The notes under the pieces are model-generated. The model saw only the letters and a list, made by a program, of their open reading frames with translations. It did not search any database and was not told the DNA's origin. This document shows, piece after piece, positions 7,152 through 62,478 of a DNA stretch of 64,000 nucleotides; position 1 is the stretch's first letter; each line of letters begins with the position of its first letter. Made by a program: the position numbers and the translations under genes. This stretch comes from Vicinamibacterales bacterium (GTDB taxonomy: Bacteria; Acidobacteriota; Vicinamibacteria; Vicinamibacterales; UBA2999). The DNA is taken from positions 9,933 to 73,932 of the forward strand of contig JAUXWO010000090.1 in the NCBI GenBank assembly GCA_030680175.1, written 5' to 3'.

Positions 7152-7248
7152 CCGACGATTGTACTGCGATCAGCTCTCGGCTATCAGCTGTCGGCGGTCG
7201 GGAGGCAGACGCTGAAAGCCGATCGCCGACAGCCGATCGCCCTCTGCC
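7141..7248. repeat. Imperfect long hairpin built from CGGCTRT-type heptamers and their complement
   Basis: The outer stem is ggcagagg (7141-7148) paired with cctctgcc (7241-7248). The inner arm ctgtcggcggtcgg pairs with ccgatcgccgacag with one mismatch. The element lies between the holB stop and the pdxA start. Confidence 0.8.
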
Positions 7249-13641: not shown

Positions 13642-13753
13642 ACTAGTGGAATGTATCGGCTGAAGAGGTACTACCAGCGCCTCTGCTCAGCCGCGATTCT
13701 GCGGGCCGCCCAACGGGCGGCCCGGTAGTAGATCGTCAACGACACGCCACTAG
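13642..13753. repeat. ~112-bp palindromic MITE/REP-like element, copy A
   Basis: About 95% identical to 60474-60585. It is bounded by ctag...ctag with inverted ends (ctagtgg / ccactag). The central hairpin is gggccgccc-aac-gggcggccc. Confidence 0.85.
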
Positions 13754-25192: not shown

Positions 25193-25206
25193 CGGGGATC
25201 GGGGAA

Positions 25207-25269
25207 CGCCGAAAGCCGAAAGCCGAGAGCCGATAGCCGATAGCCGAGAGCCGAGAGCCGAACGCCGAC
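25207..25269. repeat. Nine tandem heptamers AGCCGAN (gap-pgk spacer)
   Basis: The units read cgccgaa agccgaa agccgag agccgat agccgat agccgag agccgag agccgaa cgccgac. Confidence 0.9.
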
Positions 25270-25278
25270 AGCATCCGT

Positions 25279-27460: not shown

Positions 27461-27462
27461 AC

Positions 27463-27632
27463 AGCGATCAGTGGTCGGCTGTCGGCTATCAGCGATCGGC
27501 TTTCGGCTTTCGGCTTTCGGCTACCAGCTTCCGGCGCCACCCCGGCACCACGGCACCACGGCACCACGGCACCTCGGCACCCCGCCCCCAGGCACCCCGG
27601 GCACCCAGGGCACCCCGGGCACCCCGAGCACC
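27463..27632. repeat. Composite array: CGGCTNT heptamers then GGCACCNC 8-9-mers (tpiA-secG spacer)
   Basis: The first part reads cggctgtcggctatcagcgatcggctttcggctttcggctttcggct. The second reads ggcaccacggcaccacggcaccacggcacctcggcacc...ggcaccccgggcacccagggcaccccgggcaccccgagcacc. Confidence 0.9.
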
Positions 27633-28138: not shown

Positions 28139-28224
28139 GCGGAAGTGGCGGAATGGCAGACGCACCAGCTTGAGGGGCTGGCGGGGGCAACCCCGTGGAG
28201 GTTCGAGTCCTCTCTTCCGCACCA
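28139..28224 (+). tRNA. tRNA-Leu (anticodon GAG)
   Basis: The acceptor stem is GCGGAAG/CTTCCGC. The anticodon stem-loop is CCAGC-TTGAGGG-GCTGG. It has a long variable arm (CGGGGGCAACCCCGT), T-loop GGTTCGAGTCC, and encoded CCA. Length is 86 nt. Confidence 0.9.
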
Positions 28225-28602
28225 ACCTCAAGGCCCGCTTCAGGCGGGCCTTTCGTTTTGGTGCCTCAGCGGGACTCAGCCACTCGGTCGTCGCGCTCCG
28301 CGCTCGACCTGGAGGGGTCGAGTCCCTGGTTCCGCACCAACCTCAAGGCCCGCTTCAGGCGGGCCTTTCGCTTTGGTGCCTCGAGAGGACTCAGCCACTC
28401 GGTCGTCGCGCTCCGCGCTCGACCTGGAGAGGTCGAGTCCCTGGTTCCGCACCAACCTCAAGGCCCCTTCAGGCGGGCCTTTCGCTTTGGTGCCTCGAGA
28501 GGACTCAGCCACTCGGTCGTCGCGCTCCGCGCTCGACCTGGAGAGGTCGAGTCCCTGGTTCCGCACCAACCTCAAGGCCCCTTCAGATGGGCCTTTTGTC
28601 GC
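28225..28602. repeat. 3.3 tandem copies of a 115-bp unit, each with a terminator hairpin and a mimic of the tRNA-Leu 3' end
   Basis: The units are 28225-28339, 28340-28454 and 28455-28568, with a partial unit at 28569-28602. Each unit ends in gtcgagtccctggttccgcacca, compared with the genuine gttcgagtcctctcttccgcacca. Confidence 0.9.
28230..28260 (+). terminator. Intrinsic terminator after tRNA-Leu
   Basis: The stem aaggcccgc / gcgggcctt has loop ttcag and is followed by tcgttttg. The same hairpin recurs at the start of each 115-bp repeat unit. Confidence 0.7.
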
Positions 28603-28690
28603 AATAACTTACGCCTCGATTAGCGCAATAACCTATTAATAGCTCAACTTAATAACCTATGATATGCGTGACGCCATTCCCTATGAATGG
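28603..28690. other. AT-rich junction with three direct AATAACYTA words
   Basis: The sequence is gcaataacttacgcctcgattagcgcaataacctattaatagctcaacttaataacctatgatatg. Its composition contrasts sharply with the rest of the window. Confidence 0.7.
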
Positions 28691-28721
28691 CCCGCCGCAC
28701 CCGTGACCCTGGATACAAGCG

Positions 28722-30287
28722 ATGGCAACGCCGCAGGAAAAGCTGGCTGAGTCTCTTGATGCCCTGCACGCGCTGCAGGCGCGCAGCGTGGCAATCCGCT
28801 CCGCTGATTTGAGCCGTACGCACCGCGAGCGCCTGCTCGGCGCCGGTTTCCTGCGGGAAGTGATCAAGGGCTGGTATGTCCCCGCGCGGCCGGACGAGGT
28901 GCCGGGCGACAGCACGCCGTGGTACGCCTCGTTCTGGGATTTCTGCGCCGCCTATCTGGCCGCGCGCTTCGGGAAGGACTGGTGCCTTTCTCCCGAGCAA
29001 TCGCTCTCCTTGCACGCCGGTAACAGGGCCGTGCCGGCGCAGCTGCTCGTGCGCACGCCCAAGGGCGGCAACAAGCCCACCGCGCTGCCGCATGGCACGT
29101 CGCTGTTTGATGTGCGCTATGCGATGCCGAAAGACAGCGAGGTCGTCGAGCGCGATGGTCTGCGGCTGTTCTCCGTTCCGGCGGCACTGGTGACGATATC
29201 GGAGCAGCACTTCGGCCGTGCGGCAACGGATGTGCGCGCAGCCATGGCGGGCGTCAAGGACGCCTCTGACGTGCTTGCCGTCCTGCTCGAGGGCGGCCAC
29301 AGCACGATCGCCGGGCGCCTGGCCGGCGCGTTCCGCAATGTCGGACAGGCGCGTATCGCCGACGGGATTCTCAAGACGATGACAGCGGCCGGCTACACGG
29401 TGCGGGAGAGCGATCCGTTCGAGGACCAGCCGGGCATCGTGCTGGCCGGCCGTGACGTTTCGCCCTACGTGAACCGCATTCGCCTGATGTGGGATGCGAT
29501 GCGTCAGCCTGCGCTGGATGCGTTTCCTGCCGCACCCGGACTCTCCCGCCAGCTGGAGACGTATCTGAAAGCCGTCGAGGACGTGTATGTGAACGATGCC
29601 TACCACTCCCTGTCGATTGAGGGCTACCGGGTCAGCCGCGAGCTCATCGAACGTGTGCGCAGCGGTGCGTGGAATCCCGATCAGAACGCCGAGGATCGTG
29701 AGAATCGCAGTGCACTCGCTGCGCGCGGGTACTACGATGCGTTCGGCGCAGTGAAGGCGAGTATCGGGAACGTGCTGCGCGGCGATAATCCTGGGATAGT
29801 CAGCCGCGATGATCACTCTGGCTGGTACCGGCGCCTGTTCGGACCGAGCGTGAGCGCGGGTCTCATCCGCGCTGCCGATCTGGCGGGCTACCGCAGCGGA
29901 CCGGTTTATATCCGGCGCTCGATGCATGTGCCGCCGCCGCGCGAGGCGGTGCGCGATTGCATGCCGGCGCTGTTCGAGCTTCTCGCGTCGGAGCCTGAAC
30001 CGGCTGTGCGCGCCGTGCTCGGGCACTTCGCGTTCGTTTACATCCATCCTTATATGGACGGCAACGGAAGGATGGGGCGCTTCCTGATGAATGTGATGAT
30101 GGCTGCGGGCGGCTACCCGTGGACCATCATTCCCCTTGAGCGGCGTGACGAGTACATGGCCACGCTCGAATCCGCGAGCGTGAAGCAGGACATCCGCCCG
30201 TTTGCGGCTTTCATCGGCGGCCTGGTGCGCGACGGCCTGCAAGGCAAGCCGCCGCCGCCCGTGCCGCTTCCGCGCGCGCGGTCATGA
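28722..30287 (+). CDS. Fic/DOC family protein (large, with N-terminal AbiEi-like domain)
   Basis: The Fic core motif is HPYMDGNGRMGR (HxFx[D/E]GNGRxxR). An upstream SLSIEG matches the [S/T]xxxE[G/N] inhibitory-helix motif. The N-terminus (RERLLGAGFLREVIKGWYVPARPDE) resembles AbiEi-type wHTH domains. Confidence 0.9.
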   Translation: MATPQEKLAESLDALHALQARSVAIRSADLSRTHRERLLGAGFLREVIKGWYVPARPDEVPGDSTPWYASFWDFCAAYLAARFGKDWCLSPEQSLSLHAGNRAVPAQLLVRTPKGGNKPTALPHGTSLFDVRYAMPKDSEVVERDGLRLFSVPAALVTISEQHFGRAATDVRAAMAGVKDASDVLAVLLEGGHSTIAGRLAGAFRNVGQARIADGILKTMTAAGYTVRESDPFEDQPGIVLAGRDVSPYVNRIRLMWDAMRQPALDAFPAAPGLSRQLETYLKAVEDVYVNDAYHSLSIEGYRVSRELIERVRSGAWNPDQNAEDRENRSALAARGYYDAFGAVKASIGNVLRGDNPGIVSRDDHSGWYRRLFGPSVSAGLIRAADLAGYRSGPVYIRRSMHVPPPREAVRDCMPALFELLASEPEPAVRAVLGHFAFVYIHPYMDGNGRMGRFLMNVMMAAGGYPWTIIPLERRDEYMATLESASVKQDIRPFAAFIGGLVRDGLQGKPPPPVPLPRARS

Positions 30288-30324
30288 AGGGCGCGGCGGA
30301 TCGAGGCCTCGGCAAGGGATGTGC

Positions 30325-30358
30325 GGGCGGCCCGGTAGTGGAACGTCAACGACACCCC
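30325..30358. repeat. Half copy (right arm) of the 112-bp palindromic element
   Basis: gggcggcccggtagtggaacgtcaacgacacccc aligns with gggcggcccggtagtagatcgtcaacgacac(g/c)cc in copies A and B. Confidence 0.75.
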
Positions 30359-30666
30359 CTTTAATCCCGGTCGGCCCTTGCGTTGGCGTTGCGGAGGCCG
30401 ACGTGGGAGGCGCGCGATGGGCGTCAGTACGCAACGTGCGCCGCAGGGAGCGTGCGCTTTCGAGCGCCGGCGCCGTAGGCCCAGCCGAAGGGGGGCCGGG
30501 TAGGCGCGGCGCGATGGGCGTCAGCACGAAAGCGCTCGCGCACGGAGGCGCAGGTGGCGAGCGCGCCCTCCCGGAGGCCGGAGCGACGGCAACGCAAGGG
30601 CCGATCGCGATTTGGGGGGGGGCGGGACTGCGGCGAGGCCGGTCTTTAGGTACGGAGCGAGAATCC

Positions 30667-30971: not shown

Positions 30972-31147
30972 AGATATCTCGCGATGTCGTGATGTGGTGA
31001 TCTGGTGATGGGATGTGCGATGTCAGGATCTCACGATCTATCTCGTGAGCTGCCCCGATCTCTCGATCTGCGTCCCCGCCGACAGCGGCGCGCCTTGTGC
31101 CGAGAGCCGGAAGCCGAAAGCCGATCGCTGATCGCTGATCGCTGACC
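30972..31147. repeat. Composite repeat field: GATCT/GTGATGTG words, then seven GCYGANN heptamers
   Basis: The first part reads gatatctcgcgatgtcgtgatgtggtgatctggtgatgggatgtgcgatg...gatctctcgatctg. The second reads gccgaga gccggaa gccgaaa gccgatc gctgatc gctgatc gctgacc. Confidence 0.85.
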
Positions 31148-31162
31148 GCCAGCGCGCAAGCG

Positions 31163-33724: not shown

Positions 33725-33814
33725 GCGATCAGCTATCGGCTATCGGCTATCGGCAGGACACCCGCCGGGCATGGCGTGACAGCGTGACGGGCCGAAAGCC
33801 GAAAGCCGAGAGCC
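33725..33814. repeat. Inverted heptamer arrays (CGGCTAT x3 ... GCCGARA x3) inside the nqr operon
   Basis: The left arm is gcgatcagctatcggctatcggctatcggc (33725-33754). The right arm is gccgaaagccgaaagccgagagcc (33791-33814). The arms are imperfect reverse complements separated by a 36-nt loop. Confidence 0.85.
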
Positions 33815-60473: not shown

Positions 60474-60585
60474 GCTAGTGGAGTGTATCGACTGAAGAGG
60501 TACTACCAGCGCTTCTGCTCAGCCGCGATTCCGCGGGCCGCCCAACGGGCGGCCCGGTAGTAGATCGTCAACGACACCCCACTAG
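60474..60585. repeat. ~112-bp palindromic MITE/REP-like element, copy B
   Basis: It differs from copy A (13642-13753) at about five positions. It is bounded by ctag...ctag. The right-hand ctag contains the korA stop codon. Confidence 0.85.
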
Positions 60586-62378: not shown

Positions 62379-62387
62379 ACGGGTCTC

Positions 62388-62478
62388 GTCTATCGGCTAT
62401 CGGCGCTCAGCTATCGGCTTTCGGCTTTCGGCTTTCGGCTGCCTTTTCGCATTTCGCATTTCGCATTTTGCATTCCGC
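62388..62478. repeat. Composite array: CGGCTNT heptamers then CGCATTT heptamers
   Basis: The units read ctatcggctatcggcgctcagctatcggctttcggctttcggctttcggct gccttttcgcatttcgcatttcgcattttgcattccg. Confidence 0.9.

What the first reader, a model, noticed from the sequence alone, without database searches (positions are those of the whole stretch)
28722..30287. Orphan 521-aa Fic protein with an AbiEi-like N-terminal domain in a tRNA-proximal islet
The ORF has an intact Fic active site (HPYMDGNGRMGR) and, about 115 residues upstream, SLSIEG. The latter fits the auto-inhibitory [S/T]xxxE[G/N] helix of intramolecularly inhibited Fic enzymes.

The first ~250 residues are not a standard Fic N-terminus. 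The segment RERLLGAGFLREVIKGWYVPARPDE resembles the wHTH of AbiEi-type antitoxins and regulators. The fusion suggests a single-chain, self-regulated toxin-like or defence-like AMPylase.

The gene stands alone, with no partner ORF and no integrase. It sits between an att-like repeat array and a relic of the palindromic element, so it is the clearest accessory or horizontally acquired gene in the window.
Basis: partly seen in the sequence, partly recalled or inferred. Interest (0 to 1): 0.6.

Follow-up and report, generated by a model that had tools for sequence, protein, structure and literature searches.

The report
Self-regulating Fic enzyme gene cassette
This gene encodes a protein-modifying (Fic/AMPylating) enzyme fused to a DNA-binding module of the kind used by AbiE antitoxins, and it travels between distant bacteria as a one-gene unit together with a conserved array of probable binding sites for its own protein.

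Summary
The ORF at 28722-30287 (+) is real and encodes 521 aa. Residues about 283-505 are a FICD-like class II Fic domain. It has an intact HPYMDGNGRMGR motif, and its SLSIEG aligns with the inhibitory TVAIEG of FICD.

Residues 1-270 match no Pfam family. A confident model of them (pLDDT 94) has only AbiEi structures as significant PDB matches (6y8q, Rv2827c/1zel). The AbiEi-like idea is therefore supported at fold level.

The gene is solitary but not rare. The family has thousands of members across Acidobacteriota, Proteobacteria, Bacteroides and others. It sits on 80 plasmids and on no phage, with 63-78% identity across phyla and no conserved neighbour.

New here: all 157 homologue loci tested have a 24-bp-periodic direct-repeat array over the promoter. 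In the window the cores are at 28603, 28627, 28651 and 28675. The core sequence co-varies with residue 116 of the N-terminal module. This argues for autorepression by the protein itself.

In the window the cassette (28602-30323) lies between tRNA-Leu with its att-like repeats and a truncated palindromic element. GC3 is 0.79 against 0.92-0.96 in the neighbouring genes.

A toxin or defence role is inferred, not shown. I rate it a new variant of known kinds.

The parts
28139..28224 (+). tRNA-Leu (anticodon GAG), the integration hot spot that precedes the islet
   Evidence: ARAGORN. The same tRNA precedes fic in relatives L007, L009, L010, L012, L014 and L020.
28235..28577 (+). Three tandem units of about 114 nt. 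Each holds a terminator-like hairpin plus a degenerate copy of the tRNA-Leu 3' end (att-like array).
   Evidence: the repeat finder families D1 and D2; hairpin 28230-28252. The units are 95-99% alike and 88% like the tRNA 3' end. They are absent from the closest relatives.
28600..28695 (+). Array of four 24-bp direct repeats, the predicted operators. Cores are AATAACTTA (28603-28611), AATAACCTA (28627-28635), AATAACCTA (28651-28659) and CATTCCCTA (28675-28683).
   Evidence: The motif occurs nowhere else in the 64-kb window: 3 matches against 0.34 expected. A 24-bp periodicity is present in 80/80 and 77/77 homologue loci. Family consensus; coordinates checked.
28619..28648 (+). Position of the family's conserved promoter (-35 TCGACA, 17 nt, extended -10 TGnTACAAC). 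In this copy it is degenerate (ATTAGC ... TAGCTCAAC). An alternative sigma-70-like site, TTAATA-16-TATGAT, lies at 28636-28663.
   Evidence: Upstream alignment of 80 loci; promoter scan.
28722..30287 (+). fic gene, 521 aa: AbiEi-like module fused to a class II Fic domain
   Evidence: full-length AlphaFold model with pLDDT 93.7 and pTM 0.90.
28722..29531 (+). N-terminal AbiEi-like module (residues 1-270). It has a winged helix-turn-helix (helices 4-19 and 32-41, wing strands 44-48 and 51-54, including RTHRERL...KGWY). An alpha/beta C-terminal domain follows.
   Evidence: Model pLDDT 94.0. Top three Foldseek PDB hits are 6y8q_A, 6y8q_D and 1zel_A. Weak PADLOC AbiEi hits.
29058..29072 (+). Loop PKGGN (residues 113-117) between two strands of the C-terminal domain; predicted DNA-specificity loop
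   Evidence: Residue 116 co-varies with the operator core. It is G or D with AACCTA (60 loci) and R with AAGCTA (14/14, three separate NJ clades). It is mostly T with ACTTG cores.
29568..30236 (+). Fic domain (residues about 283-505), FICD-like
   Evidence: phmmer against PDB: FICD E 1.5e-18. Profile search E 1e-28. Foldseek E 1e-9.
29607..29624 (+). SLSIEG, the inhibitory-helix motif (S/T)xxxE(G/N); Glu300
   Evidence: Aligns to TVAIEG of FICD. Weak VbhA match at residues 290-310. Conserved in 78/79 relatives.
30045..30080 (+). HPYMDGNGRMGR, the Fic catalytic motif; His442
   Evidence: invariant in 79/79 relatives.
28602..30323 (+). Extent of the horizontally shared cassette (operator array + ORF + 36 nt)
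   Evidence: blastn homology to L007, L009 and L010 (90-96%) starts at 28602-28603 and ends at 30323, with unrelated DNA beyond. GC is 0.651 against 0.70 for the window. GC3 is 0.79 against 0.92-0.96 in the neighbours.
30324..30358 (+). Right junction: truncated copy of a dispersed hairpin element of this genome
   Evidence: 91-94% identical copies at 60546-60580 and 13714-13748. The left hairpin arm present there is missing here.

Best explanation
The ORF encodes a stand-alone, self-regulated Fic enzyme. It belongs to a large, previously unnamed family in which an AbiEi-type DNA-binding module is fused to a FICD-like class II Fic domain.

Shown:
- The Fic domain has the complete catalytic motif. 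Its inhibitory glutamate sits on a helix of the same chain.
- The N-terminal 270 residues adopt the AbiEi/Rv2827c two-domain fold.
- Every family member examined carries three to five 24-bp direct repeats directly upstream. These overlie a conserved sigma-70-type promoter and the 5' UTR.
- The variable base of the repeat core changes together with residue 116 of the N-terminal module.

Inferred:
- Monomers of the N-terminal module bind the repeats head to tail, as AbiEi monomers bind 23-bp sites. They repress the gene's own promoter and keep the enzyme scarce.
- The Fic domain is held off by Glu300 until some signal displaces the inhibitory helix. The signal is unknown; a change of oligomeric or DNA-bound state is the likeliest kind.
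- The enzyme then AMPylates a cellular target and arrests growth. It would act as a one-protein equivalent of a toxin-antitoxin, abortive-infection or plasmid-addiction module.

The operators plus the gene form a unit of about 1.7 kb that moves horizontally. In this window it sits downstream of tRNA-Leu(GAG).
For: Fic domain:
- Pfam E 5e-14.
- FICD E 1.5e-18, with SLSIEG aligned to TVAIEG.
- Foldseek E 1e-9.
- Both motifs invariant in 78-79 of 79 relatives.

AbiEi fold:
- Model pLDDT 94.
- The only PDB hits below E 1e-3 are 6y8q (two chains) and 1zel.
- PADLOC AbiEi models make up 7 of the 9 families hit.

Operators:
- Lag-24 autocorrelation is 0.49 against 0.27. It is the maximum in 80/80 loci against 2/80 controls, and in 77/77 loci of a second subfamily.
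- The consensus places cores upstream of -35, in the spacer, at +1 and in the UTR.
- Distant plasmid copies keep the 24-bp period with other cores.
- The motif is unique to this site within the window.

Co-variation: R116 in 14/14 AAGCTA loci and in 0/60 AACCTA loci, in three separate NJ clades. T116 goes with ACTTG cores.

Solitary and mobile:
- Neighbour strands are random and 152 Pfam families occur among 143 neighbours.
- 80 plasmids carry it.
- Identity is 63-78% across phyla.
- 10 of 60 loci have a tRNA or tmRNA within about 0.6 kb of the gene.
- GC3 is 0.79 against 0.92-0.96 in the neighbours.

Precedents:
- AbiEi monomers bind 23-bp sites over their promoter and autorepress (PMC3985639).
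- In H. pylori ICEs a fic gene replaces the AbiEii toxin gene downstream of an AbiEi-like gene (PMC12443045).
- SoFic is a Fic abortive-infection protein (PMC12249575).
- CccR is a Fic protein that represses its own promoter (PMC9755527).
Against: - No experiment supports DNA binding, AMPylation, toxicity or defence.
- The AbiEi link is structural (TM 0.38-0.50). Sequence support is weak and below threshold: no Pfam AbiEi family matches, and a profile of the N-terminal module finds no AbiEi chain in PDB sequences.
- The repeats are direct with a 24-bp period, whereas AbiEi operators are inverted.
- The co-variation rests on an unbootstrapped NJ tree. The T116/ACTTG association is confined to one subfamily.
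- Neighbourhoods mix mobile and defence genes with ordinary genes, and no enrichment statistic was computed.
- FICD-type enzymes can be reversible regulators rather than toxins.
- In this window the family promoter hexamers are mutated, so this copy may be expressed differently or poorly.
Confidence: 0.6

Rival explanations
1. DNA-tethered AMPylase or dual-function transcription factor. The N-terminal module's main job is to bring the Fic domain to DNA. There it modifies DNA-bound proteins (topoisomerases, nucleoid proteins, RNA polymerase) or regulates other genes. Autorepression is secondary.
For: CccR combines a Fic domain with a DNA-binding domain. It acts both as a repressor and as an FtsZ-AMPylating toxin. 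FicT toxins target gyrase and topoisomerase IV (cited). The full-length model has pTM 0.90, suggesting a fixed arrangement of the two halves.
Against: Within the 64-kb window the operator motif occurs only upstream of the gene itself. The array always overlies the gene's own promoter. No regulon could be looked for beyond the window.
Confidence: 0.2
2. Reversible regulatory AMPylase/deAMPylase like FICD or EfFic. It is a benign accessory stress regulator, neither a toxin nor a defence gene.
For: The closest solved relatives are FICD/HYPE and Fic-1. In those, the same glutamate switches the enzyme to deAMPylation (established knowledge on FICD). The glutamate is invariant.
Against: The gene behaves as mobile accessory DNA: it is plasmid-borne, patchy and transferred across phyla. 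It has no conserved substrate gene nearby. Tight autorepression is typical of harmful gene products.
Confidence: 0.12
3. The repeat array and its binding protein serve the cassette's own mobility or maintenance, as iteron-like sites. Gene regulation is not their sole role.
For: In 11 loci the cassette alone (1.72-2.13 kb) is bracketed by 38-233-nt duplications of different targets. These have neither an integrase nor conserved termini. The array of four to five direct repeats resembles plasmid iterons.
Against: No recombinase or replicase chemistry is known for Fic or AbiEi folds. Only 2 of 69 loci of the second subfamily show such duplications. Integrase-bearing islands also carry the gene (L002). 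Homologous recombination of a circle, or an integrase acting in trans, explains the repeats more simply.
Confidence: 0.05
4. In this particular genome the copy is a silenced passenger. The ORF is intact but the promoter is disabled.
For: The family -35 and -10 hexamers are ATTAGC and CTCAAC here, against TTGACG and TACAAC in the 96-97% identical relatives. The roughly 240 nt that precede the array in those relatives are replaced here by the tandem att-like units.
Against: The ORF is full length and 96-97% identical to relatives. Three operator cores are intact. An alternative sigma-70-like site lies at 28636-28663.
Confidence: 0.1

Closest known systems
AbiEi antitoxin/repressor of the type IV AbiE system (S. 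agalactiae AbiEi, PDB 6y8q; M. tuberculosis Rv2827c, PDB 1zel; COG5340)
   Same: Both have the two-domain fold of an N-terminal winged HTH plus an alpha/beta C-terminal domain. The predicted site size of about 24 bp per protein compares with 23 bp for AbiEi. [quoted passage not shown]
   Different: Here the module is fused to the effector instead of being a separate protein. No AbiEii/DUF1814 nucleotidyltransferase partner is present. The repeats are direct (three to five at a 24-bp period), not two inverted sites. Sequence similarity is below Pfam detection.
Class II Fic enzymes: FICD/HYPE, C. elegans Fic-1, BtFic, CdFic
   Same: Catalytic motif, fold, and an inhibitory (S/T)xxxE(G/N) helix N-terminal to the core in the same chain.
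   Different: FICD carries TPR repeats and a membrane anchor. This family instead carries an AbiEi-like DNA-binding module. Its target is unknown.
SoFic anti-phage protein and CccR (Fic domain followed by a C-terminal HTH domain)
   Same: Each is a single Fic protein with a DNA-binding domain. CccR represses its own promoter. SoFic causes abortive infection by AMPylation. The PADLOC SoFic model matches the Fic core at E 7e-22.
   Different: The DNA-binding domain is at the other end and has a different fold. The NCBIfam SoFic equivalog scores 27 bits against a cut-off of 550. There is no small downstream antitoxin like AS1.
H. pylori ICEHptfs3 V21 (AbiEi-like) + V22.1 (Fic) gene pair
   Same: An AbiEi-like protein is combined with a Fic effector in place of the AbiEii toxin, on a mobile element.
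   Different: There it is two overlapping genes, here one polypeptide. No sequence comparison was made.
tRNA-targeting genomic islands and their integrase-less satellites
   Same: The cassette lies next to the 3' end of a tRNA gene, with repeats of that end. In L009 and L014 the gene is bracketed by such repeats.
   Different: The window has no integrase and no right-hand repeat. Other loci use non-tRNA targets with duplications of up to 233 nt.

Membership tests
Fic/Fido enzymes, class II (intramolecular N-terminal inhibitory helix) | Catalytic motif HxFx(D/E)GNGRxxR | tested here: met
   HPYMDGNGRMGR at residues 442-453; invariant in 79/79 relatives.
Fic/Fido enzymes, class II (intramolecular N-terminal inhibitory helix) | Fic fold / family profile match | tested here: met
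   Pfam PF02661 scores 53 bits against a cut-off of 24. FICD E 1.5e-18. Foldseek E 1e-9.
Fic/Fido enzymes, class II (intramolecular N-terminal inhibitory helix) | (S/T)xxxE(G/N) helix in the same chain, N-terminal to the core | tested here: met
   SLSIEG (296-301) aligns with TVAIEG of FICD. Weak VbhA match at 290-310. Conserved in 78/79 relatives.
Fic/Fido enzymes, class II (intramolecular N-terminal inhibitory helix) | AMP-transferase activity relieved by mutating the glutamate | not testable with these tools
   Needs an enzyme assay of wild type, E300G and H442A.
AbiEi (COG5340) antitoxin/repressor | Two-domain fold: N-terminal winged HTH + characteristic C-terminal domain | tested here: met
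   Foldseek on a pLDDT-94 model gives 6y8q E 3e-4 and 1zel E 8e-4, with 233-259 aligned columns. No other hit is below E 0.02.
AbiEi (COG5340) antitoxin/repressor | Match to the family's sequence profiles | tested here: inconclusive
   No Pfam AbiEi family matches at E <= 5 in 37 members. PADLOC AbiEi models hit several of the 31 members at E 9e-4 to 0.05, and the window protein at E 0.023 over residues 73-162. The N-terminal profile finds no AbiEi chain in PDB sequences.
AbiEi (COG5340) antitoxin/repressor | Encoded upstream of an AbiEii (DUF1814) nucleotidyltransferase toxin gene | tested here: not met
   The window has no such gene. No conserved neighbour appears among 143 nearest neighbours of homologues.
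AbiEi (COG5340) antitoxin/repressor | Binds repeats over its own promoter and autorepresses | tested here: inconclusive
   A 24-bp repeat array overlies the promoter in 157/157 loci and co-varies with residue 116. Binding itself was not tested. The repeats are direct, not inverted.
SoFic anti-phage defence protein | Full-length match to the SoFic equivalog, including the C-terminal domain | tested here: not met
   NCBIfam NF046030 scores 27 bits against a cut-off of 550. The PADLOC SoFic model matches only positions 57-263 of 361. The protein ends about 15 residues after the Fic core.
Class I Fic toxin-antitoxin (VbhT/VbhA, FicT/FicA) | Separate small antitoxin gene supplying the inhibitory helix | tested here: not met
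   The inhibitory motif is inside the protein. No conserved small ORF lies upstream or downstream.
tRNA-integrated genomic island | Adjacent to a tRNA 3' end and bounded by direct repeats of it | tested here: inconclusive
   The window has the tRNA and three left-hand att-like copies but no right-hand copy. Relatives L009 and L014 have both.
tRNA-integrated genomic island | Encodes its own integrase | tested here: not met
   Only fic lies between tRNA-Leu and yciI. Some relatives sit in integrase-bearing islands (L002).

The most novel reading that the evidence does not exclude
The 24-bp array plus the AbiEi-Fic gene may be an autonomous one-gene mobile cassette. It would spread across phyla without an integrase and insert with long target duplications (38-233 nt). 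Its own protein or its iteron-like sites would take part in excision, maintenance or insertion. The milder version is a single-polypeptide toxin-antitoxin or abortive-infection switch, in which occupancy of the operators by the N-terminal module is the signal that gates the Fic domain.
Probability: 0.08. Interest if true: 0.9.

Novelty: new variant of a known kind. Interest (0 to 1): 0.62.

Why it matters
- Fic enzymes and AbiEi repressors are both known parts of toxin-antitoxin and anti-phage systems. I found no description of this fusion in the searched literature. Databases call the family only 'Fic family protein'.
- The family is abundant in soil and marine bacteria. It also occurs on plasmids of cultured Agrobacterium, Rhizobium, Bacteroides and Roseobacter-group bacteria, so it can be studied experimentally.
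- The conserved operator array and the co-varying residue give a concrete, testable protein-DNA recognition code for the AbiEi fold. They predict that its C-terminal domain reads DNA.
- A toxin domain and its transcriptional governor in one chain would be the smallest self-contained module of this type. It would also show how AbiEi-type regulators are re-used with different effectors.
- The repeat-flanked, integrase-less copies raise a separate question about how single genes move.

Tried and rejected
- Pfam, NCBIfam and PHROGs gave nothing for residues 1-270.
- Sequence and profile searches of PDB sequences with the N-terminal module found no meaningful hit. Foldseek with the full-length model returned only Fic structures, so a separate N-terminal model was needed.
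- The search for related loci with the diverse alignment A1 failed because no stretch was conserved enough.
- The phage GenBank collection, IMG/VR viral contigs and BFVD viral structures gave no relatives. A phage origin is rejected.
- I tried to fetch L. lactis pNP40 for a bona fide AbiEi sequence, to run a profile-profile comparison. The accession is not in the collection, so no hhalign test was made.
- A search for a conserved partner gene (small antitoxin, AbiEii, integrase) among nearest neighbours found none.
- A search for conserved termini or dispersed-repeat status of the flanking duplications found none. Rfam finds no RNA gene in seven of those loci.
- An NTase reading of residues 60-230 was prompted by weak Foldseek hits to JHP933 and poly(A) polymerases. 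It is rejected as a catalytic assignment because no acidic or G-S motif is conserved.
- One script was faulty and was rerun.
Full report
**Observation**

The ORF 28722-30287 (+) exists as described: ATG start, 521 aa. The 532-aa antisense ORF 28644-30242 is a high-GC shadow. Only the + frame has family matches.

The + frame matches Pfam Fic at 53 bits against a cut-off of 24. It matches human FICD chains at E 1.5e-18 over residues 283-500. That is the inhibitory helix whose glutamate blocks productive ATP binding.

HPYMDGNGRMGR (442-453) is a complete Fic motif. The two motifs are 146 residues apart, not about 115. Both are essentially invariant in 79 relatives: E300 in 78/79 and H442 in 79/79.

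**The N-terminal 270 residues**

No Pfam, NCBIfam or PHROGs family matches them, in the window protein or in 37 diverse members. A profile of the module finds nothing meaningful among PDB sequences.

An exhaustive search with residues 1-270 found 1404 clusters at 50% identity. The full-length hits are nearly all 490-560 aa, so the module is practically always fused to Fic.

AlphaFold models are confident. The full protein has pLDDT 93.7 and pTM 0.90. The N-terminal module alone has pLDDT 94.0. It consists of:
- a winged helix-turn-helix (helices 4-19 and 32-41, wing strands 44-48 and 51-54);
- a five-stranded alpha/beta domain with a helical bundle.

Foldseek with the full model returns only Fic structures. 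With the N-terminal model, the only hits below E 1e-3 are all AbiEi-family structures:
- two chains of the S. agalactiae AbiEi antitoxin (6y8q; E 3e-4 and 6.5e-4);
- Rv2827c, the M. tuberculosis AbiEi homologue (1zel; E 8e-4, TM 0.50, 259 aligned columns).

At sequence level the PADLOC AbiEi model hits the window protein weakly (E 0.023, residues 73-162). Seven of the nine PADLOC families hit by the 31 N-terminal sequences are AbiEi models (E 9e-4 to 0.05).

I conclude that the module has the AbiEi fold and is probably a remote homologue. It is not a member by sequence-profile criteria, and it lacks the defining AbiEii partner gene.

**Distribution**

The family is large:
- More than 8000 hits were scored. 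The best 120 are full length at 74-96% identity.
- 358 species-representative genomes matched the search patterns.

Members with 63-78% identity to the window protein occur in many groups:
- Acidobacteriota (Vicinamibacterales, Terriglobia);
- Gamma- and Alphaproteobacteria (Woeseiaceae, Halieaceae, Mesorhizobium, Ruegeria);
- Polyangiaceae, Methylomirabilis and Verrucomicrobiota.

Such identity across phyla indicates horizontal transfer.

The N-terminal module is found on 80 plasmids, 42 of them conjugative. These include Agrobacterium, Rhizobium, Sulfitobacter and B. thetaiotaomicron p5482, and all copies are annotated only as 'Fic family protein'. It lies next to resolvases, partition genes, transposases or a zeta toxin.

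No relative was found in phage genomes, IMG/VR contigs or BFVD.

Neighbourhoods are not conserved:
- Nearest neighbours are on either strand at random (35/71 upstream and 35/72 downstream on the + strand).
- Median gaps are 507 and 336 nt.
- The 143 nearest neighbours fall into 152 Pfam families. The most frequent, HTH_3, occurs six times.
- Relaxases, integrases, transposases, restriction-modification genes and some PADLOC families are present alongside ordinary genes.

The gene is therefore solitary and accessory. I did not compute a defence-island enrichment statistic.

**A conserved operator-like array**

Upstream of every homologue there is a 24-bp-periodic array of direct repeats.
- In 80 genome loci the autocorrelation of positions -130 to -11 is 0.49 at lag 24 and 0.47 at lag 48, against about 0.27 elsewhere.
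- Lag 24 is the maximum in 80/80 loci, against 2/80 control regions.
- In 77 loci of a second subfamily (about 52-58% identical protein) it is again 77/77.

The consensus of the window's subfamily is:

gCa.aAaAacCTA.tttt.gcTCGACAcaAtAaCCTA.aAATGaTACAAC.tAATAACCTA.tatt.Gc.CaGCacaAaAaCCTA

It contains a -35 TCGACA, a 17-nt spacer and an extended -10 TGnTACAAC. Repeat cores lie upstream of -35, inside the spacer, at about +1 and in the 5' UTR.

In the second subfamily the cores (A.T.ACTTG) themselves contain the -35 (TTGACT) and -10 (TATACT) hexamers. Distant plasmid copies keep the 24-bp period with yet other cores: AAAACGT in Agrobacterium and AAATACGAGTA in Bacteroides.

In the window the cores are at 28603, 28627, 28651 and 28675. 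The motif occurs nowhere else in the 64 kb: 3 matches against 0.34 expected.

AbiEi is reported to bind as a monomer to 23-bp sites that cover -35, -10, +1 and downstream, and to autorepress (PMC3985639). The 24-bp unit and its placement fit that model, except that the sites here are direct and more numerous.

**Co-variation**

Within a locus all cores change together, and the change tracks one protein position.

| Operator core | Loop 113-117 | Loci |
|---|---|---|
| AACCTA | PKG(G/D)N | 60 |
| AAGCTA | P(K/G)ARN (R116) | 14/14, against 0/60 with AACCTA |
| ACTTG (second subfamily) | mostly PKGTN | |

In a neighbour-joining tree the AAGCTA loci fall in three separate clades, interleaved with AACCTA clades.

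The wHTH recognition helix (SRTHRERL) is nearly invariant, as are the CTA and A-rich parts of the core.

This is indirect but specific evidence that the N-terminal module reads these repeats. It also suggests that a loop of its C-terminal domain contacts the variable base.

Caveats: the tree is not bootstrapped, and the T116 association is confined to one subfamily.

**Genomic setting in the window**

The flanks are housekeeping genes: waaA, gap, pgk, tpiA, secG and tRNA-Leu(GAG) on the left, and yciI, apbE and nqrF on the right.

Homology to the closest relatives (L007, L009, L010; 90-96% identity) runs only from 28602/28603 to 30323.

This block has GC 0.651 against 0.70 for the window. Its GC3 is 0.79 against 0.92-0.96 in the neighbours.

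To its left are the tRNA, a terminator hairpin and three 114-nt tandem units. Each unit ends in an 88% copy of the tRNA 3' end. These units are absent from the relatives, which instead have about 240 nt of other sequence.

To its right the block abuts a 35-nt piece of a hairpin element. That element has two other copies in the window, and its left arm is missing here.

The family promoter hexamers are mutated in this copy (ATTAGC and CTCAAC), although the cores are kept. An alternative site, TTAATA-16-TATGAT, lies at 28636-28663.

**Mobility**

tRNA-Leu(GAG) precedes fic in six Vicinamibacterales-type loci. Overall 10 of 60 loci have a tRNA or tmRNA gene within about 0.6 kb of the gene.

In L009 and L014 the gene alone is bracketed by 53-92-nt repeats of the tRNA-Leu 3' end.

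More generally, in 11 of about 80 loci the cassette is bracketed by duplications of 38-233 nt (87-99% identical), with inserts of 1.72-2.13 kb. The targets differ:
- tRNA-Arg;
- tRNA-Lys plus 184 nt of flank;
- the 5' end of a host gene;
- intergenic DNA.

Each duplication has exactly two copies per locus. The inserts contain no integrase and have no conserved termini.

Other copies sit in integrase-bearing islands (L002). Only 2 of 69 loci of the second subfamily show such duplications.

Integration of a circle carrying the cassette plus one repeat by homologous recombination would explain this, as would an integrase acting in trans. I could not distinguish these, and I record it as unexplained (note 3).

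**Mechanism proposed**

Shown:
- domain composition, motifs and folds;
- the repeat array and its position over the promoter;
- the co-variation;
- the solitary, mobile character of the gene.

Inferred:
- The N-terminal module binds the array and represses the gene.
- Glu300 keeps the Fic domain inactive.
- An unknown trigger releases it to AMPylate a cellular target.

This would give a one-protein counterpart of AbiE-type or Fic-type toxin-antitoxin and abortive-infection modules.

Precedents support plausibility but not membership:
- In H. pylori ICEs a fic gene replaces the AbiEii toxin gene behind an AbiEi-like gene (PMC12443045).
- SoFic acts by abortive infection (PMC12249575).
- CccR is a Fic protein that represses its own promoter (PMC9755527).

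Rival readings are a DNA-tethered AMPylase or dual-function regulator, a benign FICD-like reversible regulator, a role of the array in cassette mobility, and silencing of this particular copy. None is excluded.

**Verdict**

Two corrections apply: the motif spacing is 146 aa, and the family is not rare.

The literature searches found no description of this fusion. I rate it a new variant of known kinds, with moderate to good interest. The interest rests mainly on three points:
- the universal 24-bp operator array with a co-varying specificity residue;
- the single-gene cassette behaviour;
- the availability of cultured, plasmid-borne members for testing.

Noticed in passing
L009 5168-7277; L014 1055-3286; L050 52-2387; L057 9526-11959; L040, L013, L034, L047, L065, L077, L083: In 11 homologue loci the fic cassette alone (1.72-2.13 kb) is bracketed by 38-233-nt duplications of different target sequences (87-99% identical). 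These have neither an integrase nor conserved termini. The cassette in L040 and L044 shows a circular-permutation-like relation of flanks.
   Followed up: partly
window 28235-28577: Three tandem units of about 114 nt, 95-99% alike. Each holds a terminator-like hairpin plus a degenerate tRNA-Leu 3' end. They are absent from the closest relatives, so the array arose or expanded in this lineage.
   Followed up: partly
window 30324-30358, 60546-60580, 13714-13748: A dispersed element: the hairpin GGGCCGCCC-AA-CGGGCGGCCC followed by GGTAGTAGATCGTCAACGACACCCC. The copy next to fic lacks the left arm, as if the cassette ended inside it.
   Followed up: partly
window 27462-27537, 31078-31150, 25204-25272, 62380-62443, 33791-33814, 7211-7240: Intergenic repeats built of GCCGAAAGCCGA / TCGGCTTTCGGC units recur between housekeeping genes on both strands. 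Two of them flank the whole secG-tRNA-fic-yciI stretch as an inverted pair.
   Followed up: no
window 27535-27632: Short tandem repeats with 8- and 9-nt units (GCACCACG..., CCCCGGGCA...) just upstream of secG.
   Followed up: no
window 28619-28648: This copy has lost the family's -35 and extended -10 consensus, while its 96-97% identical relatives keep it. The operator cores are retained.
   Followed up: partly
window 30355-30620: The 370-nt spacer between fic and yciI holds nested imperfect inverted repeats (45-nt and 36-nt arms, 78% complementary) and a 32-nt direct repeat. Its nature is unknown.
   Followed up: no
L056 and L077 (same contig CAWIIJ010000008.1, about 30 kb apart): Two paralogous copies of the cassette lie in one genome, about 88% identical at the DNA level. 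Both have AAGCTA operators and R116.
   Followed up: no
N-terminal model, residues about 60-230: After AbiEi, the next weak Foldseek hits are nucleotidyltransferases: the AbiEii-like JHP933, ANT(2'')-Ia, CCA-adding enzyme and viral poly(A) polymerases. This hints that the AbiEi C-terminal domain is a degenerate NTase-like fold. No catalytic residues are conserved.
   Followed up: partly
L018 1948-2020 and 11990-12066; L016/L018 305-nt repeat: Two tRNA-Arg(TCT) copies bound a 10-kb island with fic at its right end. A 305-nt repeat directly follows fic and recurs about 6 kb upstream.
   Followed up: no
L007, L021 record titles: Two MAG contigs carrying close relatives are labelled 'uncultured Bifidobacteriaceae'. 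Their sequence and synteny are Acidobacteriota-like, so they are probably mis-binned.
   Followed up: no
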